From NCBI GenBank assembly GCA_965203555.1, contig CBDBCY010000004.1, positions 1,057,554 to 1,121,553 on the forward strand: a stretch of DNA of 64,000 bases, given 5' to 3'. The stretch is from Acidimicrobiia bacterium (GTDB lineage: Bacteria > Actinomycetota > Acidimicrobiia > Spongiisociales > ZC4RG35). The position numbers were made by a program, and so were the translations under genes. Shown here in pieces: positions 1 through 59,460 of the stretch. Within the stretch, counting starts at the first letter, position 1. Every line of letters begins with the position of its first letter. The notes beneath the pieces are model-generated. The model ran no database searches. It saw nothing but the letters and a program-made list of their open reading frames with translations, and was not told the origin of the DNA.

Positions 1-1
1 G

Positions 2-1015: not shown

Positions 1016-1070
1016 GGGCTTGGCCGTGGCAGAGCGGCTATGATGCGACAGGAGAGAGAAGGCGCCATCG

Positions 1071-1409: not shown

Positions 1410-1510
1410 GGCGGCGCCTGGTTGTACCATGATGTGGCGTGTGGGGAAGGGGAAAAGCGAACGTTTCACCCCCCTCAAGTCAACAAATCTGCCTGGAAAC
1501 CCCAGCTGAC

Positions 1511-2388
1511 CTAACCCTCGCCCAGGGCATCCAGGTATTCCCGGCGCCAAGCTTCGGTGGCCTCGCAGCGGTTGAAGGTGTAGACGTGCAAACCGTCGAT
1601 GGCCAGCAGGGGGTCGGTGAGGCTTTCTCCGAGGTCTTCCAGCAATTCCCCGGGATCGTATCCCCCGGGTCCCAGGAGCTTGGTCACCACCTTGGCGTTC
1701 TTGGAGAGAAACCTCATCGAATCACCCACCCCGATCCGGGCCGAGATCTGCAATAGCTTCATCCGGCCTCCCACCCCGGGCACGCCCAGCAGCGCGGGCA
1801 GCCGGATCCGGCGCTGTCGGGCGTCGGAAAGAAAAGAACGAATGGCTTCGGCGTCAAAGCACATCTGGGTGGCCAGATGGTCTGCATAGGGCTGTTTGTC
1901 AGACAGGGCCTGATCGAGCTTGGAGTCGGAAATCACCGGATGACCCTCCGGATAGGCGGGGATTCCCACCTCTTCGAAGGGGTGGCCGATTTCATCCATG
2001 GCCCGGAGCAGGGACAGGCCGTCGAAGAATTCACCCGGATGGAGATGGTCCCCACCCACCACGAATGCCCGGCGGATACCCAACCGCGCAGCCCGGTCCA
2101 GGGTTTCGGCCAGGTGAGCCCGGTCACGGTGCAGCCGAGCAGACAGATGGGGGGTGACGTCGAATCCGGAATCAGCCAGTTCGGCGGCCAGCTCCATGGT
2201 TGCCTCCATCCCCTTGTTGGGCGAAGCCGTGACGGTGATCACCGATCCCTCGGGCAGGTACCGGGCCTGGGCCACCGCGTTCTTCAGGGGGATGATCTCG
2301 AACCGGACCCGGCGGAGGACCGCGGCGATCGCCGAACGGAGGGACCCGTTCAGACCATCCAGCCGCTCGGCGTAATCGGAGGAGGCCA
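1511..2388 (-). CDS. metF: 5,10-methylenetetrahydrofolate reductase MetF
   Basis: C-terminal 292 aa of the track ORF 1511..3424 (MASSDYAERLDGL…FVVGGDHLHPGEFFDGLSLL…TFNRCEATEAWRREYLDALGEG) is MTHFR-like. Its ATG (2386-2388) directly abuts the upstream gene's stop (TAATG coupling). The upstream 345 aa of the track ORF is antisense read-through. Confidence 0.85.
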
Positions 2389-3855
2389 TTATGCCTCGAA
2401 GTCCGGGTAGGTCTGTTTCTTCCGGGCGACGTATTCCTGCAGAGCCTCGTCGACCGCCTCGTCGATCGGCGGCGGTTGATACTCGGCCAGTGACTTCTTC
2501 CACAGGGAGTTGGCCCGCTCCACCGACCGCAGCGACCCTTCCTCCGACCATTGCTCGTAGCTGTTGTTGTCGGCGGTGAACGACCGGTAGAAAGCCGTTT
2601 CGAAATTGGCCAGCGTGTGGGCTGTTCCCAGGTGATGTTGGCCCGGTCCGGTCTCGATCACCGCCTCCAGGGCCTGTCCGTTCTCGGAGAGATCCACCCC
2701 CGACAGCAGCGCCTCGGCCATGCCGCACTGGTCGGAGTCGAGGACGAACTTCTCGTACCCCATCGTCAACCCACCTTCCAGCCATCCCGCCGAATGCAGG
2801 ACGAAGTTGATTCCGGCCAACAGGGTGGGCTGAAAAGTGGCGGCCGACTCGTAGGCGGCCTGGGCGTCGGGAACCTTGGAAGCGGTCAGATTCCCGCCGG
2901 ACCGGAAGGGAATCCCCAACCTCCGACCCAACTGGGCCAGCACGAACAGCGTCAGCGAAGGCTCGGGAGTTCCGAAGGTGGGAGCTCCCGATTGCATGGA
3001 AAGCGAGGAGGCGAACGATCCGAAAATCACCGGCGCTCCCGGCCTGACCAACTGGGTGTAGGACAGGGCCACCAGCGCCTCCGCCAGGGTCTGGGCCGCC
3101 ACTCCCGCCACCGTGACCGGCGCCATCGCCCCGGCCAGGATGAAGGGGGTGATTATTGCCGCCTGGTTCCGCCTGGCGTATTCGCGGGCCGAACCCAGCA
3201 TGGCCTTGTCCCAGGTGAGAGGGGAGTTGGCATTGCACAGCCCCATGATCACCGTGTTCTCTTCCAGGAAGTCCTCCCCGAACACCAGGGCGGCCATCTC
3301 CACCGAATCGGCTGCCCGGTGGGGAGCGGTGACCGAGCCCATCAACGGCTTGTCGGACCACCGAAAGTGGGAGTAGACCATGTCCAGGTGACGTTTGGGG
3401 ATGGGCACGTCCACCGGCTCGCACAATGTCCCCCCGGAGTGATGCAGATAAGGAGTCATGTAGACCAGCTTCACGAAATTCCGGAAGTCCTCGATGGTGG
3501 CATAACGACGCCCTCCGTCGAGATCCCTCACGAAGGGAGAGCCGTAAGCGGGCGCCAGCACCATGTGGTCACCGCCGATCACCACCGACTTCTCGGGGTT
3601 GCGAGCCACCTGGGTGAACATGGACGGGGCGTTGTCGGTCACTATTCGGCGGCACATTCCCCGGGGGAAACGCACCCGCTGTCCCTCGACGTCGGCCCCG
3701 GCCTCACGGAAGGTCCGGACGGCCGGCTCATCGGTTATGTCCACGCCCACCCGCTCCAGAATGGTCTCGGCGTTGTGCTCGATTATCTCCAATCCTTCGG
3801 TGCTGAGCACCTCGTAGGGAGCGAGTTTGCTGGTGAGGAAGGGGGATCTGTTCAT
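2389..3855 (-). CDS. MttB-superfamily (non-pyrrolysine) quaternary-amine:corrinoid methyltransferase (glycine-betaine MtgB-like)
   Basis: …MNRSPFLTSKLAPYEVLSTEGLEIIEHNAETILERVGVDI…ITPFILAGAMAPVTVAGVAAQ…SGAPTFGTPEP…GINFVLHSAGWLEGGLTMGYEKFVLDSDQCGM… is the trimethylamine-methyltransferase (MttB) fold without an in-frame amber codon. Start chosen at ATG 3853-3855 (MNRSPF); an alternative ATG at 3921 (MSRRRR) is possible. Confidence 0.85.
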   Translation of the reverse strand: MNRSPFLTSKLAPYEVLSTEGLEIIEHNAETILERVGVDITDEPAVRTFREAGADVEGQRVRFPRGMCRRIVTDNAPSMFTQVARNPEKSVVIGGDHMVLAPAYGSPFVRDLDGGRRYATIEDFRNFVKLVYMTPYLHHSGGTLCEPVDVPIPKRHLDMVYSHFRWSDKPLMGSVTAPHRAADSVEMAALVFGEDFLEENTVIMGLCNANSPLTWDKAMLGSAREYARRNQAAIITPFILAGAMAPVTVAGVAAQTLAEALVALSYTQLVRPGAPVIFGSFASSLSMQSGAPTFGTPEPSLTLFVLAQLGRRLGIPFRSGGNLTASKVPDAQAAYESAATFQPTLLAGINFVLHSAGWLEGGLTMGYEKFVLDSDQCGMAEALLSGVDLSENGQALEAVIETGPGQHHLGTAHTLANFETAFYRSFTADNNSYEQWSEEGSLRSVERANSLWKKSLAEYQPPPIDEAVDEALQEYVARKKQTYPDFEA

Positions 3856-3913
3856 CTCCTGGGCGGCCGCACGGGCAGCCGCCCGGGCCCGCCGCCCTCC
3901 TGATCTTCTTCTC

Positions 3914-5911
3914 CTACTCATCACGGCCTCTCTTTGCTCTGCGGGAAGTCCGACGCCGGGTTCGGCGGGAAGACCTCCGTTTTGGATCGTCCCGGCCCTT
4001 GCTCGCACCGGGAAAGGACATGGACGCCACGAAGTGCTCCTGGAAACGGGACTCTATGGCAGTCTCGATTTTCTCAACTCTATTGATGACCTGTTCAATC
4101 TCGCGTCGACATTCTCCGCTCAACAGACACATCAACGCCCCCGTCCCCGCCGCATTGCCCGCCGAAGACGCCCGGTCGGCTTCGATCCGGGGAATAAGTC
4201 CCAGGGCCATGGAGTGGGAAGTGCTCAGATGGGACCCGAAGGCGCCGGCCAGACGGATTCGGTCCACACGATCGGACCCCAGATGATCCATCAACAACCT
4301 GGCCCCGGCCAGCAGCGCCGCCTTGGCCAGTTGCACCGCCCGAACATCATTTTGCGTAATTCGCACGACCGTTCCCTTGTCCCACAGGATATAGGAGTAG
4401 GTACGCCCGTCCTCTACCACCCGTGAGGAACGTTCACCGGCGGCGCCGTCGATTCTCCCGTTCGCCATTATCACCCCCGCCGCCGCCAATTCGGAGAGGA
4501 CCTCGATGATTCCCGATCCGCAGATGCCGGTAACGCCGATCTTTCCTTCCAACTCCGAGAACCCCGGCTCGTCGGACCAGGGGTCCATCCCGATCACCTT
4601 GATCCGGGGCTCCAGGGTGTGGGGATCGATGCGCACCCGTTCTATGGCTCCCGGCGCCGCTCTCTGTCCCGAAGAAATCTGTGCACCCTCCAATGCCGGA
4701 CCGGTGGGACTGGAGGCGGCCAGCAGCCGATCCTCGTTTCCCAGCACTATCTCGGCGTTGGTGCCGATGTCGCACAACAACATGATCTCTTCGGCGCCAT
4801 AGGGGCGTTCCGACAGGATCATCCCGGCCGCATCGGCGCCCACATGCCCGGCTATGCAGGGAAGAAGATAGATTCGGGTCGCCTCGTTCAAATCGATTCC
4901 CACTCTCGAAGCTGCAATCTCGACCGGGCCATCGGTGGCCAGGGTGAAGGGAGCCTGTCCCAGCGGACGCACGTCCAACCCCAGGAACAGGTGGTGCATG
5001 ATGGGATTGCCCACCACCACCATCTCCAGCACCGACTCCCGCTCAGCCCCGGCCTGCTCCAACAGGTCCGAACACAACTCCGAAACCGCCGAACGCACCA
5101 GGGAGGTCAGCTTCTGCGCTCCATCCTGGTTCAGAGCCACATATGAGACCCTGCTCATCAGGTCTTCCCCCAACCTGACCTGGGGATTCATCAAGCCATG
5201 GGAAGCCAGAACCTCTCCGGTGGTCAGATCGGCCAGGTGACCGGCGATGGTGGTCGAGCCCACATCCACCGCCACCCCCAGCACGTGCTCCTTGAATCCG
5301 GGCCATACCGACACCACTTCTTTTCGGTCCCGCACCGCGGCCGTCACTTTTCCGTCGCCGACCCGGAGTGCTTCCTGCAGCATTCCCAGAACTTCGGCCC
5401 CCACCGCCACGCCGGAAAGGACCCACTGCTCTTCCAGGGCCGCCAGCAGCCGCTGGGCGTCGCCCGGCGCATGTTCCAGGGTCGGGGCCTCCGTCACCAC
5501 GTAGTGGAGGGTGGTCACCGGGTCCAGCCGGAGCTTTCCCACGTCGACTTCCTTTCTGACCACCTGCCGATGAGTCTGGCTTTCGGGCGGCACATCCACC
5601 AGGACATCTTCCAGCACCCCCGCCATGCACCCCAGCCTGCGGTCGTCGGCCAACCCCCGCCGCTTGCGATAGGAAGACTCCGTTTCAGACCACTCCGTCA
5701 ACGCCTCCGGCCCCACCGAGATTCCGTGCTTGGCGAACTCTCCGAACACCGGCGTCATCTGGCAACGTCCGCAGATGCCTCTGCCGCCGCACAGGGAAGC
5801 AAGGTCGGCGCCCACCATTCGGGCCGCCTCCAGCACCGTCGTCCCCCGGGGAACCCGACCCCTCCTCCCCGAAGGTGTGAAGATTATCCGAGGATCAGCC
5901 GGCTCGGCCAT
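3914..5911 (-). CDS. Corrinoid reductive activase (RamA-like): N-terminal 2Fe-2S ferredoxin plus ASKHA/DUF4445 ATPase domain
   Basis: N-terminus PRIIFTPSGRRGRVPRGTTVLEAA…CGGRGICGRCQ is a plant-type 2Fe-2S ferredoxin. The remainder (…VAVDVGSTTIAGHLADL…LLCDIGTNAEIVLGN…ICGSGIIEV…) is an ASKHA-fold RACo C-terminal-like domain. Start taken at MAEPADP (5909-5911); the track start at 6022 would overlap the upstream gene by 127 nt. Confidence 0.8.
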   Translation of the reverse strand: MAEPADPRIIFTPSGRRGRVPRGTTVLEAARMVGADLASLCGGRGICGRCQMTPVFGEFAKHGISVGPEALTEWSETESSYRKRRGLADDRRLGCMAGVLEDVLVDVPPESQTHRQVVRKEVDVGKLRLDPVTTLHYVVTEAPTLEHAPGDAQRLLAALEEQWVLSGVAVGAEVLGMLQEALRVGDGKVTAAVRDRKEVVSVWPGFKEHVLGVAVDVGSTTIAGHLADLTTGEVLASHGLMNPQVRLGEDLMSRVSYVALNQDGAQKLTSLVRSAVSELCSDLLEQAGAERESVLEMVVVGNPIMHHLFLGLDVRPLGQAPFTLATDGPVEIAASRVGIDLNEATRIYLLPCIAGHVGADAAGMILSERPYGAEEIMLLCDIGTNAEIVLGNEDRLLAASSPTGPALEGAQISSGQRAAPGAIERVRIDPHTLEPRIKVIGMDPWSDEPGFSELEGKIGVTGICGSGIIEVLSELAAAGVIMANGRIDGAAGERSSRVVEDGRTYSYILWDKGTVVRITQNDVRAVQLAKAALLAGARLLMDHLGSDRVDRIRLAGAFGSHLSTSHSMALGLIPRIEADRASSAGNAAGTGALMCLLSGECRREIEQVINRVEKIETAIESRFQEHFVASMSFPGASKGRDDPKRRSSRRTRRRTSRRAKRGRDE

Positions 5912-6821
5912 CGGCGCCTCGTCCGGTACGCCGCCGACGACCACCTCCCCGCCGGACCCCCCTGCTGCCCGGAGGAGGGGAGGCGCGGTGAGCCCTGATC
6001 CAGCGAGAGCACTCCGGATCATTGGCCATCATCACATCCGCCGCCATCACCGCCGAGCGGACTTCCTGGTGAAGCGGATTGGTTATCGCCGAGGTCAGAC
6101 CGGCGCTGATCGCCATGGTGAGAAAAGCCGAGTTGATGCCCTGCCGGTTGGGAAGGCCGAAGCTGACGTTGGAGGCCCCGCAGGTGGAGTTGACGCCCAA
6201 CTCGTCTCTCAATCGACCCAGGATGCGAAAAACCTGCCGGCCGGCTTGCGCCAATGCACCGATCGGCATCACCAGCGGATCGACCACCACATCGGAAGCC
6301 GGGATGCCGTAGTCGGAGGCGCGGGAAACAATTCTGCGGGCCACCTCGAACCGGACGTCCGGGTCCTCGGAGATGCCCGTTTCGTCGTTGGAAATGGCCA
6401 CCACCGCCGCTCCGTGCTTTGCTACCAGGGGCAACACTCTCTCCATCACTTCATCCTCGCCCGTCACCGAATTGACCAGAGCCTTCCCCTGATACACCCC
6501 CAGCCCGGACTCCAATGCCTCGACGATGGAGGAATCGATAGAGATCGGGACATCGGTGAGCGACTGGACCAGCTTGATGGCCTCGGCCAGGATGGCGGGT
6601 TCATCCGCCAGGGGAATCCCGGCGTTGACATCCAGCATGTGTGCGCCTGCGCCCACCTGGGCCAATGCGTCGGCCTCCACCCGGCTGAAGTCGCCGCTCT
6701 TCATCTCCTGCGCCAACAGCTTGCGGCCGGTGGGGTTGATCCGCTCCCCGATGATCGTGAAGGGCCGGTTCGGCCCTATCACCCACTCCCGGGTGGCGGA
6801 GGAGACGACGGTCTCGGTCAT
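5895..6821 (-). CDS. Methyl-H4folate:corrinoid methyltransferase (pterin-binding, MtrH/AcsE/MtgA-like)
   Basis: MTETVVSSATREWVIGPNRPFTIIGERINPTGRK…GAHMLDVNAG…VPISIDSS…ALVNSVTGE…NSTCGASNVSFGLPNRQGINSAFL is a pterin-binding (DHPS-like) domain. A strong GGAGGAGGAG RBS lies 5' of its ATG. The R-rich C-terminal tail may be overlap read-through. Confidence 0.8.
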   Translation of the reverse strand: MTETVVSSATREWVIGPNRPFTIIGERINPTGRKLLAQEMKSGDFSRVEADALAQVGAGAHMLDVNAGIPLADEPAILAEAIKLVQSLTDVPISIDSSIVEALESGLGVYQGKALVNSVTGEDEVMERVLPLVAKHGAAVVAISNDETGISEDPDVRFEVARRIVSRASDYGIPASDVVVDPLVMPIGALAQAGRQVFRILGRLRDELGVNSTCGASNVSFGLPNRQGINSAFLTMAISAGLTSAITNPLHQEVRSAVMAADVMMANDPECSRWIRAHRASPPPGSRGVRRGGGRRRRTGRGADGRAG

Positions 6822-6836
6822 CTCCTCCTCCCGTGG

Positions 6837-7523
6837 CTAGGCATTGGCGCGTTGCTTTTCGACCAGGGTCTTGGCGGTCTCGGCCGCCACGGCTGCATCT
6901 CGGCAGTAGGCGTCCGCCCCCACCGCCTCGCCGAATTCCTCGTTGAGGGGCGCCCCGCCCACCATCACGATGATTTCCTCCCTGATGCCCTCTTCCTTGA
7001 GAGCGTCGATGACCACCTTCATGTACGGCATGGTGGTGGTCAGAAGCGCCGACATGCCCAGAATGTCGGGGCCGTGCTCCTCCAGCGCCTCCAGGAATTC
7101 CTGGGCGTCGGTGTTGATCCCCAGGTCGAACACCTCGAATCCCGCCCCCTCCAGCATCATGCCCACCAGGTTCTTGCCGATGTCGTGAATGTCTCCCTTG
7201 ACGGTGCCGATCACCACCTTGCCGATCGACTCGACACCCGACGCCGAAAGTATGGGCCGCAGTATCTCCATCCCGGCCTTCATGGCCTTGGCGGCCAGTA
7301 GCACTTCGGGGACGAAGAGGATTCCGTCGCGGAAATCTATCCCCACGATCCTCATGCCCTCCACCAGTGCGTCGTTCAGTACTCTTTGGGCGTCCCAGGA
7401 CCGGGCCAGTAGAATTTCGGTTCCCTCGGCTATCTCATCGGCTAAGCCGTCGTAAAGATCGTCATGCATCTGGTAGACGAGCTCCTCGTCATCAAGAGAA
7501 GCAAGGTCAAAATCTTCGGTCAT
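6837..7523 (-). CDS. Corrinoid (B12-binding) methyl-carrier protein (MtgC/MtbC-like)
   Basis: …GTVKGDIHDIGKNLVGMMLEGAGFEVFDLGINT… carries the DxHxxG cobalamin-binding motif and a Rossmann-like B12-binding domain, with an N-terminal helical cap. AGGTGA RBS 5 nt upstream of the ATG at 7523. Confidence 0.85.
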   Translation of the reverse strand: MTEDFDLASLDDEELVYQMHDDLYDGLADEIAEGTEILLARSWDAQRVLNDALVEGMRIVGIDFRDGILFVPEVLLAAKAMKAGMEILRPILSASGVESIGKVVIGTVKGDIHDIGKNLVGMMLEGAGFEVFDLGINTDAQEFLEALEEHGPDILGMSALLTTTMPYMKVVIDALKEEGIREEIIVMVGGAPLNEEFGEAVGADAYCRDAAVAAETAKTLVEKQRANA

Positions 7524-7621: not shown

Positions 7622-7638
7622 GTTTACGCATTGTAAAC
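7622..7638. promoter_or_regulatory. Palindrome GTTTACgcattGTAAAC in the divergent mtgC / DMGDH intergenic region (candidate operator)
   Basis: Perfect 6-bp inverted arms with a 5-nt spacer. Sits in the 180-bp divergent promoter region between 7523(-) and 7704(+). Confidence 0.3.
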
Positions 7639-7703: not shown

Positions 7704-10205
7704 ATGGACTTCCCCACCAGCGCCCATGTAATAGTGATTGGAGCAGGTATTGCAGGTAACTCGGTGGTAGGGCACCTTGCCGAAATGGGCTGGAGGAACA
7801 TTGTTCAAATCGACAAGGGACCTCTTCCCAATCCCGGAGGCTCCACCGGGCACGCCTCCAACTTCTGTTTCCCGGTCGATCACTCCAAGGAGATGACCCT
7901 GCTGACCCTGGATTCCACCAGGCAGTACGATGAGATGGGCGTGATGGTGGTTTCGGGGGGAATCGAGGTGGCCCGCACCCCCGAACGCATGGAGGAACTG
8001 CGTCGCCGCATGACCTCCGCCACGGCCTGGGGAGTCGAGTCGTATCTCATTTCCCCCGACGAAGTGCTCGAACTGGTGCCTTTTATAGACCGCGACGTCA
8101 TTACGGGCGGGTTCTACAGTCCCGGGGTGACGGTGGTCGACTCGCTGCGGGCGGGCACCATCATGCGCGAACGGGCCCAGGCCCTCGACGCCCTCACCGT
8201 GCTGCCCAACACCGAGATTCTGGACATGGAGGTGCGCAACGGCGCCATCCACGCCGTCATAACCGACCGCGGGCGGATAGAAACCGACTATGTGGTGATC
8301 GCATGCGGAGTGTGGAGTCCCCGCATCGCCGCAATGGCGGGGGCCACCATCCCGCTCACACCCGCCGTCCATCAAATGATCGACGTGGGCCCCATCCCGA
8401 TTCTGCAGGAGACTCGTTCGGAGATCGGGTATCCCATCGTTCGCGACATGGACACCTACATGTACGAGCGGCAGACGGCCGGGTCCATGGAGGTCGGCTC
8501 CTATGCCCACCGGCCGATCTTTCACCACCCCGATGACATTCCTTCCCTGGGGGAATCGCTGCTCTCCCCCACCGAGCTTCCCTTCACGGACGAGGACTTC
8601 GACCTGCAGATGGAACATGCCTTGGAATTGATGCCCGAGATCCTCTCGGAGGCCGAGATCCGCTACGCCATCAACGGCCTGCTGTCCCTCACCCCCGACG
8701 CCATGCCTCTTCTCGGAGAGACGGTGGAGGTGAAGAACCTCTGGTCGGCGGCGGCGGTGTGGATCAAGGAAGGCCCGGGGGTGGGAAAGATGGTGGCCCA
8801 GTGGATGACCCAGGGATATCCCGAAATCGATCCACACTCGTCCGACATAGCCCGGTTCTACCGGTTCGCCCGCACCGAGCACCACATCCATGCCCGCTGC
8901 TCGGAGCACTTCAACAAGACCTACGGCATCGTGCACCCCCGGGAGCAGTGGGAGTCCAACCGCAGAGTCCGCACCGTTCCCGCCTACCCGCGGCAGGTCG
9001 AATTGGGCGCCGTGTTCTACGAGGTGGGCGGATGGGAAAGACCCCAGTGGTACGAAGTCAACGCTCCGTTGGTGGAAAAGTACGGGGTCCGGGGGCGCGA
9101 CCACGAGTGGGACGCCCGCTGGTGGTCGCCCGTCATCAACGCCGAACATCTGGCCATGCGGGAGAACGTGGGGATGGTGGACCTCACCGCCTTCGCCATC
9201 TTCGACGTCACCGGACCCGGCGTGGTGGACTACATTCAGAAAATGGCCGTCAACCAGTGCGACGTAGCCGTGGGAAGGGCCGTCTACACCCCGCTCCTCA
9301 CGGAGACGGGGGGCTTTCGCGCCGACCTCACCATCCTCCGACTCGCCAAGCTGCACTATCGGGTGATCAGCGGCGGGGGCGACGGCGCCCGGGACCGCTA
9401 CTGGTTCCGCAAACATCTGCCCGAAGACGGGTCGGTCACTTTCGTGGACAACACCTCGGCCGTCTCCACGGTCGGTCTGTGGGGCCCGAATGCTCGCCGG
9501 GTAATAGAGAGCCTCACAGCCGACGACGTTTCAAACGAAGGATTCCCGTACGGATCGGTCAAAGAGGTCGACCTGCAGGGCATCGATGCCCTGATGTTCC
9601 GCATCTCCTATGTGGGGGAACTCGGATGGGAGATTTCGGTACCCATGGAACAGGGACTCCGCTTGTGGGACATGCTGTGGGAAGCCGGCCAGGACTGGGG
9701 AGTGGTGCCGGTGGGCATCGGAGTGTACGGGACCACCGGGCGGCTCGAGAAGGGATACCGGCTGATGGGGGCCGAGTTGGAGTCGGAGTACAACCCGGTG
9801 GAAGCCGGGCTTGCCCGGCCCAAGGTGAAGAAAGCCGACTTCATCGGCAAGGGTCCCTACCTTGCAGCCCGCCGGGAGGATCCGGCCACAATCCTTTGCA
9901 CGCTAACGGTCGAGGACCACACCTCGGCGTCGGGGATCGAACGGTACATGGGAGGCAACGAGCCGATCCTCACCCCCGACGGCGAGCGCATCACCGACAG
10001 TCACGGCCGTGCATCCTATGTCACCACCGCCGGCAACGGCCCTTCGGTGGGCAAGTACCTGCTGCTGGCATACCTGCCCCCGGCCCACGCGGTGGTCGGC
10101 CGGGAGTTGGCGGTTATGTACATGAACGAGTTGTACCCGGTGAAGGTGGCGGTGGCGGGCAGCACCCCGCTGTTCGATCCGCAGAACGCCCGGATGAAGT
10201 GCTGA
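7704..10205 (+). CDS. Dimethylglycine/sarcosine dehydrogenase family (FAD oxidoreductase plus GcvT-like folate-binding aminomethyltransferase domain)
   Basis: N-terminus VIVIGAGIAGNSVVGHLAE is a GxGxxG FAD site. The C-terminal half (…GELGWEISVPMEQGLRLWD…) is a glycine-cleavage-T-like fold. AGGGAG RBS 7 nt upstream. TGA stop is 1 nt from etfB's ATG. Confidence 0.9.
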   Translation: MDFPTSAHVIVIGAGIAGNSVVGHLAEMGWRNIVQIDKGPLPNPGGSTGHASNFCFPVDHSKEMTLLTLDSTRQYDEMGVMVVSGGIEVARTPERMEELRRRMTSATAWGVESYLISPDEVLELVPFIDRDVITGGFYSPGVTVVDSLRAGTIMRERAQALDALTVLPNTEILDMEVRNGAIHAVITDRGRIETDYVVIACGVWSPRIAAMAGATIPLTPAVHQMIDVGPIPILQETRSEIGYPIVRDMDTYMYERQTAGSMEVGSYAHRPIFHHPDDIPSLGESLLSPTELPFTDEDFDLQMEHALELMPEILSEAEIRYAINGLLSLTPDAMPLLGETVEVKNLWSAAAVWIKEGPGVGKMVAQWMTQGYPEIDPHSSDIARFYRFARTEHHIHARCSEHFNKTYGIVHPREQWESNRRVRTVPAYPRQVELGAVFYEVGGWERPQWYEVNAPLVEKYGVRGRDHEWDARWWSPVINAEHLAMRENVGMVDLTAFAIFDVTGPGVVDYIQKMAVNQCDVAVGRAVYTPLLTETGGFRADLTILRLAKLHYRVISGGGDGARDRYWFRKHLPEDGSVTFVDNTSAVSTVGLWGPNARRVIESLTADDVSNEGFPYGSVKEVDLQGIDALMFRISYVGELGWEISVPMEQGLRLWDMLWEAGQDWGVVPVGIGVYGTTGRLEKGYRLMGAELESEYNPVEAGLARPKVKKADFIGKGPYLAARREDPATILCTLTVEDHTSASGIERYMGGNEPILTPDGERITDSHGRASYVTTAGNGPSVGKYLLLAYLPPAHAVVGRELAVMYMNELYPVKVAVAGSTPLFDPQNARMKC

Positions 10206-10206
10206 G

Positions 10207-10968
10207 ATGAATATCCTGGTCTGTGTCAAGAGAGTGCCCGCCCCCGGGGCTCGGATCGTCCTGACCGACGACGCCCAGCAAATCGACACCCGGCATCTGG
10301 GTTTCACCACCAGCCCTCACGAAGAGTGCGCGGTGGAAGCCGCTGTCCAATTGAAGGAGAGGCACGGGGGGACCACCACCGTTCTCACCCTGGGACCGTC
10401 CGAAGCGACCGAACAACTACGCTATTCCGTCTCGGTCGGGGCCGACCGGGTGGTGCTGGTACCCGCCGACACCACCGAGTTGGACCCGCAGGCCACCGCC
10501 TCGGCCCTGGTGGACGCGATAGCGGAACTGGAGGCCGAGTCTGCATTCGACCTGGTCCTGTTCGGCAACGAGTCGGCGGATTCGGGAGGGTACCAGGTGG
10601 GTATCAGGGTGGCCCGCGCCCTGGGCCGTCCCGTCATCAGCGGATTGAAGGGGATCGAAATAGACGGTGACCACATGGTGGGAAGAAGGGAGACCGATGA
10701 GGGATTCGAGGTCTACCGTCTACCCCTCCCGGCCGTGGCGACCGCCAAGGAGGGAATAACCCTCCCCCGCTATCCCACCCTGCCGGGCCGTCTGAAGTCC
10801 CGAAGGGCGCAGATCGCCGAGGTGACGGTTGATTTCTCACCGGGAGGCCAGGAGATGGTCCACCTGTTGAAACCGGTGGAAGAGGTCACCGAGACAATCA
10901 TATTGGGTCATGGAGCGGACGCCGCCCCCCGGGTGGTGCGACTGTTGGAGGAGGTGGGTTTGCTATGA
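10207..10968 (+). CDS. etfB: Electron transfer flavoprotein beta subunit
   Basis: MNILVCVKRVPAPGARIVLTDD…LVLFGNESADSGGYQVG… is a typical EtfB. Overlaps etfA by ATGA. Confidence 0.9.
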   Translation: MNILVCVKRVPAPGARIVLTDDAQQIDTRHLGFTTSPHEECAVEAAVQLKERHGGTTTVLTLGPSEATEQLRYSVSVGADRVVLVPADTTELDPQATASALVDAIAELEAESAFDLVLFGNESADSGGYQVGIRVARALGRPVISGLKGIEIDGDHMVGRRETDEGFEVYRLPLPAVATAKEGITLPRYPTLPGRLKSRRAQIAEVTVDFSPGGQEMVHLLKPVEEVTETIILGHGADAAPRVVRLLEEVGLL

Positions 10969-11942
10969 GCCTCATCCTGGTTTTCCTGGACAATGACCGT
11001 GGTTCCCTGTCCCCCTCGGGGCCCGAGTCGCTCACACCCGCCCTCGAACTGGCCGCCGCCCTGGGCGCCCGGTTGGAGACGGCCACCGTCGGCGAAGCGG
11101 GCCGCGCCGCCCTGGAACAGTTGGGCCTGCCCGGACACGTCGTCTCCCACCCCGTCCTGTCGGACTACGCCCCCGAGGCCTACGGCGAGGCCCTTGCCCA
11201 GTTGGCGAACCACGCCGGGGCCTCGGTGCTGATGGCCCTGGGCGACGATCGGGGCGCCGAGGTAATGGCTCACGTCGCCGCCGTCCTGGAGGAGCCCCTG
11301 GTCGCCAACGTCACCGAGATCGTGGACGTTTCGCAGGGAACGGCGGGCGCCTGGGAGATGGTCCGGGTGAGGTGGGGAGGAAGTCTCCTCGAAAGAGCCC
11401 GACTGCAATCATCCCGAAAACTGCTGACCGTCGCTCCTCACACCTTCGCCCCGCCCGAGTCGGCCATGGGCGTTTCGACGGCGGCGAACACCTTCGTGCC
11501 GGACATACCGGACCATCTCGCCCGCACCCGGGTGGTGGAAAGAGTCCGCCTGGCGGAAGGGCTGACCCTCGCCACCGCGCCGGTGGTCGTCAGCGGGGGA
11601 AGAGGCGTGGGCAGCGCCGAAAACTTCGCCATTTTGGAGGAGTTGGCCGACTTGGTGGGCGGAGTGGTGGGGTGCTCGCGGGTCGCCACCAACAACGGAT
11701 GGAGGCCCCACTCCGATCAGGTGGGACAGACCGGCACCCGTATCGCTCCCGACCTCTACATCGCCTGCGGAATCTCCGGCGCCGTGCAGCACTGGGTCGG
11801 ATGCATGGCGTCGAAGCAGATACTGGCTATCAACACCGATCCCGAGGCGCCCCTGGTCACCAAGGCTGACTACGCCGTCATCGGAGACCTCCACGAGGTC
11901 CTGGCGGCGATCATCGCCGAAATCAGGACCCGAATCTCATAG
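10965..11942 (+). CDS. etfA: Electron transfer flavoprotein alpha subunit
   Basis: …VVVSGGRGVGSAENF…PDLYIACGISGAVQHWVGCMASKQILAINTDPEAPLVTKADYAVIGDL… carries the EtfA FAD-binding C-terminal signature. Confidence 0.9.
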   Translation: MSLILVFLDNDRGSLSPSGPESLTPALELAAALGARLETATVGEAGRAALEQLGLPGHVVSHPVLSDYAPEAYGEALAQLANHAGASVLMALGDDRGAEVMAHVAAVLEEPLVANVTEIVDVSQGTAGAWEMVRVRWGGSLLERARLQSSRKLLTVAPHTFAPPESAMGVSTAANTFVPDIPDHLARTRVVERVRLAEGLTLATAPVVVSGGRGVGSAENFAILEELADLVGGVVGCSRVATNNGWRPHSDQVGQTGTRIAPDLYIACGISGAVQHWVGCMASKQILAINTDPEAPLVTKADYAVIGDLHEVLAAIIAEIRTRIS

Positions 11943-12183: not shown

Positions 12184-13407
12184 GTGACCGCCGACGGCGA
12201 CGGGCTGATACGCTTGGAGAACATCTACAAGATCTTCGGACCCCAGCCACAGGGAAGGGCATTCGAACTCACCAAGTCAGGACTCAGCAAGGATGAGGTC
12301 CTGCGGCACTCGGGTCATGTGGTAGGCCTCAACAACGTCAATTTCTCGGTCAACAAAGGTGAGATTTTCGTGGTCATGGGCCTGTCCGGATCCGGCAAAT
12401 CCACCGCGCTCCGCACTGTCAACAAGCTCCTGACCGCCACCCACGGGCAGGTTTGGGTGGCGGGAACGGACGTGCAGACCCTGGACGGCAACGAGTTGCA
12501 GGCCTTCCGGCGAGAGAAAATGGGCATGGTGTTCCAGCATTTCGCCCTGTTCCCTCACCGGTCGGTGATCGAGAACGTGGGGTACGGGCTCAAGATACAG
12601 AAAATGTCGAGGAGTGCGCGGAATGCCGCCGCCATGAAGGCCCTGTCCCTGGTGGGGCTGAAGGACTACGCGAAATACTATCCCAAGAATTTGTCGGGTG
12701 GAATGCAGCAGCGGGTGGGTCTGGCCCGGGCGCTGGCGTCCGACCCCGACATCCTCCTGATGGACGAGGCGTTCTCCGCCCTCGACCCCCTGATTCGACG
12801 CCAGATGCAGGACGAGATGATGGAGATACAGAACGCCCTTCGCAAGACCATCTTGTTCATAACCCACGATCTGAACGAGGCGTTGCGCATCGGCGACCGG
12901 GTGTGCATCATGAAAGACGGGGCGGTGGTGCAGATCGGGACTCCCGAGGAGATTCTCACCAAACCGGCCACCGGCTATGTCGCCGAATTCGTCCAGGACG
13001 TCGACCAGGGCAGAGTCATCAAGGTCGACGACGTGATGAGCACACCGAAACCCATAAAGCTGAGCATGTCCCTGTCGGCGGCCATCACCCACCTGGGCGA
13101 GCGGGCCGGAGCGTTCGTCGTGGACGATCGAGGACACCCCACCCATCTGCTGACCATCGGAGACGGGATGCGGACCGCCGGCATGGGCACCAAAAACCTG
13201 AAAGCGGCGCTGCGCCAGGACTTCGACACCGTCCCGTCGGAGACTCATCTGAACGATGTCTACGCGGCGGCGGGCCGGGGGTTGCCCATTGCGGTGGTCG
13301 ACGAGGCCGACGCCTTGATCGGCAACCTCGATCCCCGCAAGATAATGGAGGAGATGGGCAGAGTGGAACGTCTGATCGATGACTACGAGCGAGAGGTGTT
13401 CATGTGA
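12184..13407 (+). CDS. proV: Glycine betaine/proline ABC transporter ATP-binding protein with C-terminal CBS domains (ProV/OpuAA)
   Basis: Walker A GLSGSGKST, LSGGMQQRVGLARAL signature, Walker B ILLMDEAFSALD, and a CBS-pair-like tail. GTG start preceded by GGGAGGAG. Its stop overlaps the proW start (GTGA). Confidence 0.9.
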   Translation: MTADGDGLIRLENIYKIFGPQPQGRAFELTKSGLSKDEVLRHSGHVVGLNNVNFSVNKGEIFVVMGLSGSGKSTALRTVNKLLTATHGQVWVAGTDVQTLDGNELQAFRREKMGMVFQHFALFPHRSVIENVGYGLKIQKMSRSARNAAAMKALSLVGLKDYAKYYPKNLSGGMQQRVGLARALASDPDILLMDEAFSALDPLIRRQMQDEMMEIQNALRKTILFITHDLNEALRIGDRVCIMKDGAVVQIGTPEEILTKPATGYVAEFVQDVDQGRVIKVDDVMSTPKPIKLSMSLSAAITHLGERAGAFVVDDRGHPTHLLTIGDGMRTAGMGTKNLKAALRQDFDTVPSETHLNDVYAAAGRGLPIAVVDEADALIGNLDPRKIMEEMGRVERLIDDYEREVFM

Positions 13408-15524: not shown

Positions 15525-15659
15525 GACGGGGTGAAGGCCGGACCTTGATCGACAGACGCAGACCCGACACACAAGCATATGAGAGGACATTTGAAACAAA
15601 CCAGGCATAGGAAAACAACCCAGGCATGGGATTGAAGAAAGATCCCAGAAGGAGAAAAC

Positions 15660-17861: not shown

Positions 17862-17918
17862 TACCAGACCGTGAGAGATGAGGGTGCCATACGGCGCCTT
17901 CATCCTCTCTCTTTTCTA

Positions 17919-17962
17919 AAACGGGGCCTCGTCCTACCGGACGGGGCCCCGTTCTTCTGTTA
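17919..17962 (+). terminator. Putative intrinsic terminator after proX
   Basis: aaaACGGGGCCtcgtcctaccggacGGCCCCGTTcttctgtt: a GC-rich stem followed by a T-rich tract, ~60 nt after the proX stop. Confidence 0.4.
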
Positions 17963-17969
17963 ATGTCCA

Positions 17970-19064
17970 GTGTCAGTCATGTCCAATAGCTTCGGCACAA
18001 GGCTGACTGTCGGGTTGGCTGCGTTGGTACTGGTAACGGCGTCCTGTGCATCCGAAAGCCCCGACACCGACGCCCGAGAGATGCTGCCGGGTGAAGGCGT
18101 GTCGGTAACCATGGCAAGGGGGAACTGGTCGACCGGTTATATGCAGGCCGCTATCTACGCAGCCTTGCTGACTGAACTGGGCTATGAGGTAAGCCGTCCG
18201 GCTGACCTGGAATTGCCTCCCTCCAACGCCTACGTGGCCATGGCCAACGGCGAATTCGACTTCTGGGTCAACTCCTGGTTCCCCAACCACAACCAGTTCC
18301 TCGCCGGAGAGATGCCCGACGGCACCTTGGTGGGTGACCACCTGACGGTGCTCGGTTGGGAGATGCGCACCGGTGGCCTGCAGGGCGTCCTTACCAATAA
18401 GGACCTTGTGACAGAGCACGGAATAGAGACGCTCGACCAGATCGTGAACGATCCCGCCCTGTTCACGATCTTCGAGGAGGGCGATACCCATCCTGGCGAC
18501 GGCACACTCCAGTTGCTGGGATGCCCCGAGGGATGGGGATGTCACATAACCATCGACGCCTGGATCGAAAACGCGGGTTGGGAGAAGGTCGAGCAACTGG
18601 AGGTTGCTTCCTACGACGTCCTGATCGCCGAGGCCATCTCCCGGGACTCCGCCGGCATTCCGTACATCGTCTATTCCTGGGCCCCCAGTTCGTATGTGGC
18701 CGACCTGCGCCCGGGCGACAATGCCATCTGGCTGTCCACATCCCACGAGTCGATCTCCCCCAGCCAGACGGAAGGCCCGTCCACCCTGGAGGCGGGAGAG
18801 TGCTCCACCGACTCCTGCAACCTTGGGTGGGACGCAGCCGACATCCGCGTCACGGCCCACAACGATTTCCTGGCCGCCAATCCCGCCGCCGCTGCCCTCT
18901 TCGAGTTGGTGGTGATCAGCCCGATCGATGTTGCTTTGCAGAACGTTGCCTACGGCCTGGGCGAAAACACCGAGGACGACATCCACCGCCACGCTGCCGA
19001 ATGGATCGAAGGCAACCGCGACACAGTTAACCAATGGATCGCCGCTGCAAGGAGCGCAGGCTGA
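17970..19064 (+). CDS. Glycine-betaine-binding lipoprotein, single-domain paralog of proX (~75% aa identity)
   Basis: Lipobox LVTASCAS, then MLPGEGVSVTMARGNWSTGYMQAAIYAALLTELGYEV…WFPNHNQFLAGEMPDGT…GCPEGWGCHI…, colinear with each repeat unit of proX. Confidence 0.85.
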   Translation: MSVMSNSFGTRLTVGLAALVLVTASCASESPDTDAREMLPGEGVSVTMARGNWSTGYMQAAIYAALLTELGYEVSRPADLELPPSNAYVAMANGEFDFWVNSWFPNHNQFLAGEMPDGTLVGDHLTVLGWEMRTGGLQGVLTNKDLVTEHGIETLDQIVNDPALFTIFEEGDTHPGDGTLQLLGCPEGWGCHITIDAWIENAGWEKVEQLEVASYDVLIAEAISRDSAGIPYIVYSWAPSSYVADLRPGDNAIWLSTSHESISPSQTEGPSTLEAGECSTDSCNLGWDAADIRVTAHNDFLAANPAAAALFELVVISPIDVALQNVAYGLGENTEDDIHRHAAEWIEGNRDTVNQWIAAARSAG

Positions 19065-51918: not shown

Positions 51919-51932
51919 GGAAGCTGGCGTTT

Positions 51933-59376: not shown

Positions 59377-59460
59377 CCCAGAGTCGACCGAAGGAGTGCT
59401 TGTTACCCTTCCATGGGGCCTATCCCATACCCTGCCCCGACATCCGTGCGAAGTTACACC

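What the first reader, a model, noticed from the sequence alone, without database searches (positions are those of the whole stretch)
1511..7523. Corrinoid-dependent quaternary-amine demethylation operon with translationally coupled MetF
The minus-strand operon encodes, in order: a B12-binding corrinoid protein, a pterin-binding methyl-H4folate:corrinoid methyltransferase, a RamA-like 2Fe-2S/ASKHA reductive activase, a non-pyrrolysine MttB-superfamily methyltransferase, and MetF.

This is the full MtgABC plus activase logic described for glycine betaine, proline betaine, carnitine and gamma-butyrobetaine demethylation in anaerobes. Here it sits in a high-GC, probably aerobic actinobacterial genome. 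MetF is attached by a TAATG overlap, so CH3-H4folate from the pathway would be oxidised to CH2-H4folate.

The MttB homolog has no in-frame UAG, so it is not a trimethylamine enzyme.
Basis: partly seen in the sequence, partly recalled or inferred. Interest (0 to 1): 0.6.

Follow-up and report, generated by a model that had tools for sequence, protein, structure and literature searches.

The report
Cobalamin-dependent glycine betaine demethylation operon
This is a real five-gene operon that most likely strips a methyl group from the osmolyte glycine betaine using vitamin B12 and folate; the same pathway was published for aerobic bacteria in 2025, so this is a new actinobacterial example, not a new kind of system.

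Summary
Window 1511-7523 (minus strand) encodes five tightly packed genes:
- a B12-binding corrinoid protein;
- a MeTr/MetH-type pterin methyltransferase;
- a RACo-type [2Fe-2S]/ASKHA reductive activase;
- a non-pyrrolysine MttB-family methyltransferase;
- a small MTHFR joined by a TAATG overlap.

A dimethylglycine-oxidase homolog, EtfBA and a betaine-type ABC importer are transcribed divergently. This points to glycine betaine as the substrate.

The MttB homolog is 60% identical to S. meliloti 4YYC, and the S. meliloti gene lies in the published mtgBCDE cluster. It is 42% identical to D. hafniense MtgB. Leu replaces pyrrolysine. Three of MtgB's four betaine-contact residues are kept.

The five-gene order recurs in most Actinomycetota and Chloroflexota loci examined.

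The pathway logic (MtgB/C/D, activase, MetF2) was described for aerobic bacteria by Mausz et al. 2025, so this is a new member of a known kind.

Two details differ from the proteobacterial clusters. The MTHFR is not their MetF/MetV pair. It belongs to a sister clade of the methyl-THF-oxidising "type 4" S6MTHFR and lacks most type-4 motifs. DUF1638 is absent.

All functions are inferred from homology and context. Interest is modest.

The parts
6837..7523 (-). Corrinoid (B12-binding) protein, MtgC-like, 228 aa; first gene of the operon
   Evidence: PF02607 + PF02310. DxHxxG motif GDIHDIG. Best NCBIfam match is MtgC_2, 214 bits, below its 370 cut-off. Best PDB match is 1Y80, 197 bits. 71-80% identical to the corrinoid gene in proteobacterial, chloroflexal and actinobacterial mtg clusters.
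5895..6821 (-). Pterin-binding methyl-corrinoid:THF methyltransferase, MeTr/MetH-pterin type (MtgD-like), 308 aa
   Evidence: PF00809. NF005719 scores 344.6 bits against a cut-off of 259. PDB matches: MeTr 2YCK 134 bits, MetH 1Q7M 130 bits. No hit to MtgA 6SJ8.
3914..5911 (-). RACo-type ATP-dependent reductive activase of corrinoid proteins (N-terminal [2Fe-2S] domain + ASKHA), 665 aa
   Evidence: RACo_linker, Raco_middle and RACo_C_ter. AcsV model matched over positions 2-624 of 632. Full-length match to 3ZYY, 294 bits. CGGRGICGRC motif.
2389..3921 (-). Non-pyrrolysine MttB-superfamily methyltransferase, aerobic MtgB-like (predicted glycine betaine:corrinoid methyltransferase), 510 aa
   Evidence: PF06253, E 1e-220. 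60% identical to 4YYC and 42% to D. hafniense MtgB. Leu345 (CUG) at the Pyl position. Y126, R340 and H376 match MtgB Y97, R312 and H348. G384 replaces F356, and W380 is invariant.
1511..2389 (-). Small single-subunit MTHFR (MetF), predicted to oxidise CH3-THF to CH2-THF; its start overlaps the MttB stop (TAATG)
   Evidence: PF02219, 48.9 bits. Best PDB match is S6MTHFR 7XG9, 108.6 bits, against 28 bits or less for canonical MetF. Clade analysis. Lies directly downstream of the MttB gene in 34 of 42 Actinomycetota and Chloroflexota loci.
7622..7638 (.). Perfect palindrome GTTTAC-N5-GTAAAC in the 180-bp divergent intergenic region; candidate operator
   Evidence: Sequence. Conserved in L004 and partly in L001/L003. 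Function is inferred only.
7704..10205 (+). Dimethylglycine oxidase/dehydrogenase homolog (DAO-FAO_M-GCV_T), 833 aa, transcribed divergently
   Evidence: Pfam domains. Full-length match to A. globiformis DMGO 1PJ5, 492 bits.
10207..11942 (+). Electron-transfer flavoprotein beta (10207-10968) and alpha (10965-11942), coupled to the DMG dehydrogenase gene
   Evidence: PF01012 and PF00766. 1-nt gap and 4-nt overlap between the genes.
12184..19064 (+). Betaine-type ABC importer: ProV-like ATPase (12184-13407), permease (13404-15524), tandem double OpuAC binding protein (15660-17861), single OpuAC (17970-19064)
   Evidence: TIGR01186 proV scores 375 bits against a cut-off of 326.6. BPD_transp_1 and OpuAC domains. 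The three OpuAC domains are about 71% identical to each other.

Best explanation
The operon encodes a cobalamin-dependent glycine betaine demethylation system of the type recently described in aerobic bacteria (MtgB/MtgC/MtgD plus activase plus an MTHFR).

Inferred sequence of events:
1. Glycine betaine enters through the adjacent Opu/ProV-type ABC importer.
2. The MttB-family enzyme transfers one N-methyl group to the Co(I) corrinoid protein. The products are dimethylglycine and CH3-Co(III).
3. The MeTr-type pterin methyltransferase moves the methyl group to tetrahydrofolate. This gives CH3-THF and regenerates Co(I).
4. The RACo-type activase uses ATP and its [2Fe-2S] centre to re-reduce corrinoid that has slipped to Co(II).
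5. The translationally coupled small MTHFR oxidises CH3-THF to CH2-THF for C1 oxidation or assimilation. Its electron acceptor is unknown.
6. The divergently encoded DMG dehydrogenase removes the next methyl group and passes electrons to EtfAB.

Every step is inferred from homology and gene context. None is demonstrated for this organism.
For: - **Domain assignments** are all far above threshold.
- **The MttB homolog belongs to the aerobic clade.** It is 60% identical to S. meliloti 4YYC. The 61%-identical S. meliloti gene lies between the cobalamin-binding protein, DUF1638, MTHFR, methyl-THF:cobalamin methyltransferase and ASKHA genes, 6 kb from bmt. That is the mtgBCDE cluster of PMC12478193.
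- **Betaine-contact residues.** Y97, R312 and H348 of D. hafniense MtgB (PMC13080624) are conserved in 207 of 207 relatives.
- **Betaine-related neighbours.** These are a full-length DMGO homolog at 492 bits, EtfBA, a ProV-type ATPase above the proV cut-off and three OpuAC domains.
- **Relatives add more betaine-pathway genes.** Some add carnitine-to-betaine genes (BKACE plus a 3HCDH/4HBT fusion). One adds a GMC choline-dehydrogenase-like gene.
- **Operon unity.** Junctions are +15, -17, -8 and -1 nt. In loci with enough flank, MtgC, pterin MT and RACo lie upstream on the same strand in 19-21 of 21 Actinomycetota and 9 of 10 Chloroflexota. MetF lies directly downstream in 23 of 28 and 11 of 14.
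- **MetF direction.** The best solved relative is the CH3-THF-oxidising S6MTHFR (108.6 bits against 28 or less; PMC11868366). In a simple NJ tree its clade is sister to type 4 and includes a Rhodococcus opacus MetF inside a LigM-like/PurU/FolD cluster. MetF2 was the most strongly induced protein on betaine in R. pomeroyi.
Against: - No biochemical assay exists for any member of the aerobic MttB clade. In R. pomeroyi only mtgC and mtgD were mutated.
- Identity to the characterised MtgB is only 42%. MtcB and MtyB share 53% identity yet prefer different substrates.
- The fourth contact residue, F356, is Gly here. F356L raised Km about 800-fold in MtgB. Whether the invariant W380 compensates could not be tested.
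- The MetF lacks most type-4 signature residues: L48->S, R78->L, F215->I, C219->I, and PFGG->TFNR, the last resembling canonical enzymes. Its direction is therefore unproven.
- Promoter and terminator scans were uninformative.
- No sarcosine oxidase, FolD or PurU was found among the window ORFs scanned.
Confidence: 0.7

Rival explanations
1. The machinery is the same, but the MttB-family enzyme demethylates a different methylated compound (proline betaine, carnitine, gamma-butyrobetaine, choline/phosphocholine or another methylated osmolyte) instead of glycine betaine.
For: - The superfamily diversifies by substrate. Marine aerobes carry up to seven paralogs.
- MtcB and MtyB are 53% identical but have different preferred substrates.
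- Identity to MtgB is 42%, and the aromatic F356 of the betaine pocket is replaced by Gly.
- R312, and to a lesser extent H348, are also kept in MtcB, MtpB, MthB and MtyB, so they do not discriminate between substrates.
Against: - The product-consuming enzyme for glycine betaine, a DMG oxidase/dehydrogenase homolog, is the immediate divergent neighbour. It recurs next to the operon in other lineages.
- Y97 is conserved here, whereas the aromatic pair is not conserved in the other characterised enzymes.
- Neighbouring pathways in relatives converge on glycine betaine: carnitine-to-betaine genes and a choline-dehydrogenase-like gene.
- There is only one MttB paralog in the 64-kb window.
Confidence: 0.15
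2. The operon is primarily anabolic. It is a split cobalamin-dependent methionine synthase in which MetF makes CH3-THF (the reductive direction) and the pterin and corrinoid proteins pass the methyl group to a homocysteine-binding module encoded elsewhere. The MttB gene would be an accessory.
For: [quoted passage not shown]
- The corrinoid and pterin proteins are unusually conserved across phyla (71-81%), compared with 62-72% for MttB and 52-61% for RACo.
- The 95%-identical relative L004 has a PF02574 homocysteine S-methyltransferase gene about 9 kb away.
- The MetF loop beta8-alpha11 (YTFNR) resembles canonical reductive enzymes.
Against: - There is no PF02574 module in the operon or anywhere in the 64-kb window.
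- The MttB gene sits between the activase and MetF and is translationally coupled to both.
- The operon is paired divergently with betaine catabolism and uptake genes.
- The MetF clade is linked to catabolic demethylases elsewhere and is only 27% identical to a canonical MetF.
- A dual role, catabolic plus methionine synthesis, is not excluded and would be compatible with the main explanation.
Confidence: 0.1
3. The MttB-family gene encodes a genuine pyrrolysine-dependent trimethylamine methyltransferase.
For: - An Rfam PYLIS_3 hit lies inside the gene, at 38.8 bits against a gathering score of 38.
- Automatic annotations call the family 'trimethylamine methyltransferase'.
Against: - There is no in-frame stop codon.
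- The UAG of the PYLIS model aligns to CUG, and Pyl334 of MttB aligns to Leu345.
- TIGR02369 scores 253 bits against a cut-off of 525.
- Only the C-terminal half aligns to 7XCL, at 105 bits.
Confidence: 0.01

Closest known systems
Aerobic MtgBCD(E) glycine betaine demethylase / split methionine synthase with RamA, DUF1638 and MetF2 (Ruegeria pomeroyi, S. meliloti and others; Mausz et al. 2025, PMC12478193)
   Same: - Same module set and logic: a pfam06253 methyltransferase, a pfam02310 corrinoid protein, a pfam00809 THF methyltransferase, an ASKHA activase and an MTHFR for CH3-THF oxidation.
- The genes are colocated with DMG demethylation and betaine transport genes.
- The MttB, corrinoid, pterin and activase proteins are 52-81% identical to those of proteobacterial clusters.
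   Different: - A different phylum (Actinomycetota) and one compact five-gene operon.
- The MTHFR is a 292-aa S6MTHFR-like enzyme. It is not the MetF(363 aa)/MetV(PF12225) pair of the proteobacterial clusters (BLASTP E 0.013).
- DUF1638 and the small PF13769 protein are absent from this lineage's locus.
- No MtgE is present in the window.
MtgB/MtgC/MtgA plus RamA of Desulfitobacterium hafniense (anaerobic glycine betaine:THF methyl transfer; Ticak 2014; Picking 2026, PMC13080624)
   Same: - The three-component scheme of substrate methyltransferase, corrinoid protein and THF methyltransferase.
- The MttB-superfamily TIM-barrel enzyme is 42% identical, with Y97, R312 and H348 equivalents and Leu at the Pyl position.
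   Different: - F356 is replaced by Gly, with an invariant Trp four residues earlier.
- The corrinoid protein scores below both NCBIfam MtgC cut-offs.
- The THF methyltransferase is of the MeTr/MetH type, not MtgA.
- The activase is of the RACo type with an N-terminal [2Fe-2S] domain.
- An MTHFR is part of the operon.
Type 4 MTHFR (S6MTHFR of Sphingobium lignivorans SYK-6) coupled to THF-dependent demethylases (Yu et al. 2025, PMC11868366)
   Same: - A small single-domain MTHFR encoded next to a system that produces CH3-THF by demethylation.
- S6MTHFR is the best solved homolog (35% identity, 108.6 bits).
- The catalytic Glu21 equivalent, Thr46, Pro49, Tyr267 and Phe269 are kept.
   Different: - Leu48, Arg78, Phe215, Cys219 and the Pro268-Gly270-Gly271 loop residues are not kept.
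- The clade has its own conserved signature, T-A-S-P and (Y/F)-T-F-N.
- In an NJ tree it forms a sister clade to type 4.
cmuABC/metF2 chloromethane pathway of Methylorubrum extorquens CM4 (aerobic corrinoid-dependent methyl transfer to THF followed by MetF2; cited in PMC11868366, otherwise own knowledge)
   Same: An aerobic bacterium uses a corrinoid methyltransferase system to load THF with a methyl group and a dedicated MTHFR paralog to oxidise it.
   Different: The substrate-activating enzyme is CmuA, a fused methyltransferase/corrinoid protein, not an MttB-family TIM barrel. The substrate is chloromethane.
MeTr / CoFeSP / RACo of the Wood-Ljungdahl pathway (Carboxydothermus hydrogenoformans, Moorella)
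   Same: These are the closest solved structures for the pterin methyltransferase (2YCK, 1F6Y) and the activase (3ZYY).
   Different: - Methyl flow in acetogenesis runs from CH3-THF to the corrinoid.
- The corrinoid partner here is a small MtgC/MttC-like protein, not the two-subunit CoFeSP.

Membership tests
MttB superfamily (PF06253 / COG5598) | Full-length match to the family profile above the curated cut-off | tested here: met
   733.4 bits against a cut-off of 25, profile positions 1-499 of 500.
Pyrrolysine-dependent trimethylamine methyltransferase MttB | In-frame UAG (pyrrolysine) at the active-site position | tested here: not met
   No internal stop codon. Pyl334 of 7XCL aligns to Leu345, codon CUG.
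Pyrrolysine-dependent trimethylamine methyltransferase MttB | Score above the NCBIfam TIGR02369 equivalog cut-off | tested here: not met
   253.5 bits against a cut-off of 525.
MtgB (glycine betaine:corrinoid methyltransferase, D. hafniense type) | Carboxylate-binding R312 and H348 | tested here: met
   R340 and H376, conserved in 207 of 207 clade members. Residue roles from PMC13080624.
MtgB (glycine betaine:corrinoid methyltransferase, D. hafniense type) | Aromatic pair Y97 + F356 for cation-pi binding of the quaternary amine | tested here: not met
   Y126 is present, but the F356 position is Gly384 in 206 of 207 sequences. W380 is invariant four residues upstream. Whether Trp fills the same space needs coordinates of 4YYC and 9YCE.
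MtgB (glycine betaine:corrinoid methyltransferase, D. hafniense type) | [quoted passage not shown] | not testable with these tools
   Requires an enzyme assay.
Aerobic MtgBCD system (Mausz et al. 2025) | pfam06253 MtgB orthologous to the gene in the S. meliloti / roseobacter mtg cluster | tested here: met
   61% identity to the S. meliloti gene flanked by cobalamin-binding, DUF1638, MTHFR, methyl-THF:cobalamin MT, ASKHA and bmt genes.
Aerobic MtgBCD system (Mausz et al. 2025) | pfam02310 corrinoid protein (MtgC) and pfam00809 THF methyltransferase (MtgD) encoded with it | tested here: met
   70-81% identity to the corresponding genes of proteobacterial loci.
Aerobic MtgBCD system (Mausz et al. 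2025) | Reductive reactivation modules: ASKHA activase and DUF1638 | tested here: inconclusive
   The activase is present. DUF1638 is absent from the window and from L001-L004, although it is present in 46 of the other loci. It could lie elsewhere in the genome.
Aerobic MtgBCD system (Mausz et al. 2025) | Homocysteine-binding MtgE (pfam02574), giving the dual role in methionine synthesis | tested here: inconclusive
   No homolog in the 64-kb window. Relative L004 has one about 9 kb away. The whole genome is not available.
Aerobic MtgBCD system (Mausz et al. 2025) | Associated MetF2 of the proteobacterial cluster type | tested here: not met
   The window MetF compared with the S. meliloti cluster MetF gives BLASTP E 0.013. 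The MetF363/MetV pair occurs only in proteobacterial loci. An MTHFR is present, but it is of another clade.
Type 4 MTHFR (S6MTHFR type) | Three signature motifs: Leu48-Pro49 with Arg78, Phe215/Cys219 on helix alpha8, and the Pro268-Phe269-Gly-Gly loop | tested here: not met
   The equivalents are Ser-Pro with Leu, Ile/Ile, and Thr-Phe-Asn-Arg. Only Pro49, Tyr267 and Phe269 are kept.
Type 4 MTHFR (S6MTHFR type) | Encoded together with a THF-dependent demethylase | tested here: met
   Overlaps the MttB gene stop codon. The linkage is conserved in 34 of 42 Actinomycetota and Chloroflexota loci.
Type 4 MTHFR (S6MTHFR type) | CH3-THF oxidation without NADH reactivity | not testable with these tools
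   Requires an enzyme assay.
RACo (reductive activator of corrinoid proteins) | N-terminal [2Fe-2S] ferredoxin domain, linker, middle domain and C-terminal ASKHA ATPase domain | tested here: met
   Three Pfam RACo domains. AcsV model matched over positions 2-624 of 632, although 340 bits is below the 800 cut-off for the exact AcsV family. 3ZYY aligns over residues 5-634. C-x5-C-x2-C motif.
RamA (methylamine corrinoid protein activase, TIGR04270) | Score above the family cut-off | tested here: not met
   101 bits against a cut-off of 500.
MtgA (D. hafniense methylcobalamin:THF methyltransferase) | Sequence similarity to MtgA (PDB 6SJ8/6SK4) | tested here: not met
   The PDB search at E<=0.01 returns MeTr, MetH and MT2DH but no MtgA entry. 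The MtgA entries exist in the PDB according to PMC7154762.

The most novel reading that the evidence does not exclude
The 292-aa MetF may represent an uncharacterised clade of demethylase-coupled MTHFRs. It is sister to the 'type 4' S6MTHFR family, with its own conserved T-A-S-P and (Y/F)-T-F-N signatures. The clade is found in Actinomycetota, Chloroflexota, Rhodococcus lignin-demethylation clusters and haloarchaeal megaplasmids.

On this reading, the clade has replaced the MetF/MetV pair in Gram-positive-type mtg operons. It would oxidise CH3-THF by a structural solution different from that of S6MTHFR, perhaps with a different electron acceptor. ETF is encoded next door, but that link is pure speculation.

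In parallel, the aerobic MtgB clade would bind betaine with a Tyr/Trp pair in place of the Tyr/Phe aromatic pair of D. hafniense MtgB.
Probability: 0.4. Interest if true: 0.45.

Novelty: new member of a known kind. Interest (0 to 1): 0.3.

Why it matters
Glycine betaine is one of the most abundant osmolytes, and its first demethylation step in aerobes was only resolved in 2025. This locus, and about 40 syntenic ones found here, show that the cobalamin-dependent route is also encoded in Actinomycetota (Acidimicrobiia, Gaiellales/Thermoleophilia) and Chloroflexota (Limnocylindrales-like). There it is a self-contained operon that would be easy to express heterologously.

This widens the set of organisms whose betaine turnover depends on B12. 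It also warns against annotating these genes as "trimethylamine methyltransferase", or their coding sequence as a PYLIS element. Finally, it points to an unstudied MTHFR clade that may help define what makes an MTHFR run in the oxidative direction.

Tried and rejected
- **Exact look-up.** An exact look-up of the MttB-family protein found no record. Context was obtained through 87-95% relatives instead.
- **Species-representative scan.** The source species was not identified. Taxonomy therefore rests on the names of homolog clusters.
- **Phylogeny against other characterised enzymes.** A phylogeny against MtpB, MtcB, MtyB, MthB and R. pomeroyi SPO2108/SPO2134 could not be built. Their sequences were not retrievable, and the supplements were absent or carried no sequences. 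Only MtgB, 4YYC and Pyl-MttB could be compared.
- **Promoter, terminator and repeat scans.** These gave nothing above the shuffle expectation.
- **Riboswitches.** No cobalamin or glycine riboswitch, or other relevant RNA, was found at Rfam gathering thresholds.
- **ETF linked independently of the DMG dehydrogenase.** I considered that ETF might be linked to the mtg operon independently, as a possible MetF acceptor. Inspection of L041 and L013 showed that ETF there also accompanies a DMGDH-like or GMC oxidoreductase gene. No independent link was found.
- **Flavin-free mycobacterial MTHFR.** No such structure appeared among the PDB hits, so this was not pursued.
- **PYLIS_3 hit.** It is coding-sequence homology only.

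Full report
**1. Observation**

Window 1511-7523 carries five consecutive minus-strand genes.

| Gene | Coordinates | Length | Key evidence |
|---|---|---|---|
| Corrinoid protein | 7523-6837 | 228 aa | PF02607 + PF02310; GDIHDIG = DxHxxG |
| Pterin-binding methyltransferase | 6821-5895 | 308 aa | PF00809; NF005719 344.6 bits, cut-off 259 |
| Activase | 5911-3914 | 665 aa | RACo linker, middle and C-terminal ASKHA domains; CGGRGICGRC [2Fe-2S] motif |
| MttB-family protein | 3921-2389 | 510 aa | PF06253, E 1e-220; no internal stop codon |
| MTHFR | 2389-1511 | 292 aa | PF02219, 48.9 bits, cut-off 24 |

The junctions are +15 nt (preceded by GGAGGAGGAG), -17, -8 and -1 nt. The last is the TAATG at 2391-2387. 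The start codons agree with independent gene calls for a 95%-identical relative.

**2. Surroundings**

A second gene set is transcribed divergently from the same 180-bp intergenic region:
- an 833-aa DAO/FAO_M/GCV_T protein that aligns full-length with Arthrobacter dimethylglycine oxidase 1PJ5 (492 bits);
- EtfB and EtfA, tightly coupled to it;
- a ProV-type ATPase above the proV cut-off;
- a permease;
- three OpuAC betaine-binding domains.

The enzyme that would consume the product of glycine betaine demethylation, and a betaine-type importer, therefore sit next to the operon.

Close relatives of 80-86% DNA identity (L001-L004) have the same locus. Downstream of MetF they also carry an IclR regulator, a BKACE enzyme and a 3HCDH/4HBT fusion. 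These are typical of carnitine-to-betaine conversion; that assignment rests on my own knowledge of the family. A chloroflexal relative has a GMC (choline-dehydrogenase-like) gene beside its EtfBA. All these contexts converge on glycine betaine.

**3. The MttB-family enzyme**

- Its best solved relative is S. meliloti 4YYC (685 bits, 60% identity).
- Next comes D. hafniense MtgB, 2QNE/9YCE (406 bits, 42% identity).
- Pyl-containing MttB 7XCL aligns only over the C-terminal half (105 bits).
- Pyrrolysine of MttB aligns to Leu345 (CUG). An Rfam PYLIS_3 hit inside the gene is therefore coding homology.

The betaine-contact residues of MtgB were defined by mutagenesis and a ligand-bound structure (PMC13080624). 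Of these, Y97, R312 and H348 are conserved here and in all 207 clade members examined. F356 is Gly in 206 of 207, and a Trp four residues upstream is invariant.

The 61%-identical S. meliloti gene lies in a cluster with cobalamin-binding protein, DUF1638, MTHFR/MetV, methyl-THF:cobalamin methyltransferase and ASKHA genes, with bmt 6 kb away. This is the mtgBCDE locus discussed by Mausz et al. 2025. The window protein is therefore an ortholog of the aerobic MtgB candidates. Neither it nor they have been assayed.

**4. The other components**

- The pterin methyltransferase resembles MeTr, the MetH pterin domain and MT2DH (126-134 bits). It gives no hit to D. hafniense MtgA, which is in the PDB as 6SJ8.
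- The activase aligns end to end with RACo 3ZYY. It scores far better on the AcsV model than on the RamA model.
- The corrinoid protein scores below both NCBIfam MtgC cut-offs. It is nevertheless 70-80% identical to the corrinoid genes of proteobacterial, chloroflexal and other actinobacterial mtg clusters.

**5. The MTHFR**

Its best solved relative is S6MTHFR from Sphingobium SYK-6 (108.6 bits, 35% identity). That enzyme defines "type 4" MTHFRs, which oxidise CH3-THF and do not use NADH. Canonical MetFs score 28 bits or less.

The type-4 signature is mostly absent: L48->S, R78->L, F215->I, C219->I, and PFGG->TFNR. In its place, a signature of T-A-S-P and (Y/F)-T-F-N is conserved in 38 MttB-linked MetFs. 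It is partly kept ((Y/F)-T-F-N; S-P in Haloarcula only) in a Rhodococcus opacus MetF that sits between a LigM-like aminomethyltransferase and PurU/FolD, and in a Haloarcula MetF.

In a simple NJ tree without bootstrap, these sequences form a sister clade to S6MTHFR. They are separate from T. thermophilus MetF and from the MetF(363 aa)/MetV pair of the proteobacterial mtg clusters. The window enzyme is barely alignable to that pair (E 0.013). The oxidative direction is therefore supported by context and relatedness, not by the published motifs.

**6. Conservation of the operon**

| Group | Loci scored (upstream / downstream) | MtgC-pterin-RACo upstream, same strand | Small MetF directly downstream |
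|---|---|---|---|
| Actinomycetota | 21 / 28 | 19-21 of 21 | 23 of 28 |
| Chloroflexota | 10 / 14 | 9 of 10 | 11 of 14 |
| Pseudomonadota | 25 / 28 | 0 of 25 on the same strand; present within 10 kb, mostly in the opposite orientation, in 12-15 of 19 loci | 0 of 28 |

Counts are from loci with enough flanking sequence. The proteobacterial clusters carry MetF363/MetV instead (18 loci). DUF1638 and a small PF13769 protein occur in most loci of all three groups. They are missing from the window and from L001-L004.

**7. Mechanism and rivals**

The best-supported reading (confidence 0.7) runs as follows:
1. Betaine is taken up.
2. The MttB enzyme transfers a methyl group to the Co(I) corrinoid.
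3. The pterin methyltransferase transfers it to THF.
4. The RACo-type activase repairs oxidised corrinoid.
5. MetF oxidises CH3-THF.
6. The DMG dehydrogenase removes the next methyl group, with ETF as electron acceptor.

The rivals are:
- a different quaternary-amine substrate (0.15), because close paralogs can differ in substrate and F356 is not conserved;
- a mainly anabolic split methionine synthase (0.1), which is weakened by the lack of any PF02574 module in the window, although a dual role as in R. pomeroyi remains possible;
- a Pyl-dependent TMA methyltransferase, which the sequence refutes.

**8. Novelty**

That paper also notes that 5% of ocean mtgC reads are actinobacterial. "mttb" is already used as a betaine-degradation marker in marine work.

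Their genome survey listed no Actinomycetota or Chloroflexota. I found no paper in the held library describing this operon form.

The finding is therefore a new member of a known kind. Its lineage-specific features are a compact operon, a swapped MTHFR clade and no DUF1638. An aerobic lifestyle is plausible but not shown. It is suggested by ETF-linked dehydrogenases and by orthologs in Sinorhizobium and Paracoccus.

Noticed in passing
window 699-1013 (- strand), compared with 2113-2428: A second copy of about 315 bp holds the last ~35 nt of the MttB-family gene plus the first 92 codons of MetF, including the TAATG junction. It is 94.6% identical at the protein level. It lies about 500 bp downstream of the intact MetF and then breaks off. 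It may be a rearrangement scar or an assembly artefact.
   Followed up: partly
window 1-1510, compared with L001-L004 12440-20200: In close relatives MetF is followed by a Na/Ca exchanger, an IclR regulator and carnitine-to-betaine genes (BKACE, 3HCDH/4HBT fusion, acyl-CoA dehydrogenase). None of these is in the window. Here the region holds small ORFs instead, including a weak DUF433-like one at 1071-1409 (+).
   Followed up: partly
window 2790-2889 (-): An Rfam PYLIS_3 (mttB pyrrolysine insertion sequence) hit sits just above the gathering score, inside the non-Pyl MttB-family ORF. The model's UAG aligns to a Leu CUG codon, so the hit is coding-sequence homology. It is a likely source of false PYLIS annotations.
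   Followed up: yes
window 7622-7638: A perfect palindrome, GTTTAC-N5-GTAAAC, lies in the divergent intergenic region between the operon and the DMG dehydrogenase gene. It is conserved in L004 and partly in L001/L003. It is a candidate operator, but no regulator gene lies nearby in the window.
   Followed up: partly
window 15660-19064 (+): There are three OpuAC substrate-binding domains, about 71% identical to one another. Two are fused in one 733-aa protein and the third is a separate 364-aa protein. They follow a 706-aa permease.
   Followed up: no
window 49705-53336 (-): A SIR2 (51933-53336) and HerA (49705-51918) pair gives strong PADLOC matches to the SIR2-HerA anti-phage system.
   Followed up: no
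window 53955-62214 (+): An Hma-type defence system is present. HmaA (53955-57269) matches profile positions 2-1016. Its C-terminal part (positions 1015-1172) is a separate ORF at 58909-59376, so HmaA appears split by about 1.6 kb. That insert contains an Rfam Ms_IGR-7 actinobacterial sRNA hit (57222-57341, -). The HmaB DUF1156 methylase follows at 59413-62214.
   Followed up: no
loci L005-L084, L087, L088: DUF1638 and a small PF13769 ('virulence factor') protein or domain are conserved parts of mtg clusters across Pseudomonadota, Chloroflexota and most Actinomycetota. The role of PF13769 in these clusters appears undescribed.
   Followed up: partly
window 3835-3921, 3914-4000 and 5895-5985 (-): Arg-rich, low-complexity tails occur at three places: the N-terminus of the MttB-family protein (also present in 4YYC), the C-terminus of the activase and the C-terminus of the pterin methyltransferase. 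All are encoded around the overlapping gene junctions.
   Followed up: no
L055 8995-9900 (+): In a Minwuiaceae (alphaproteobacterial) MAG, an MTHFR that keeps most type-4 signature residues (I-P, C219, FPFGAL; not Arg78 or Phe215) lies directly upstream of the MttB homolog. This is a direct pairing of an S6MTHFR-type enzyme with an MttB-family gene.
   Followed up: no
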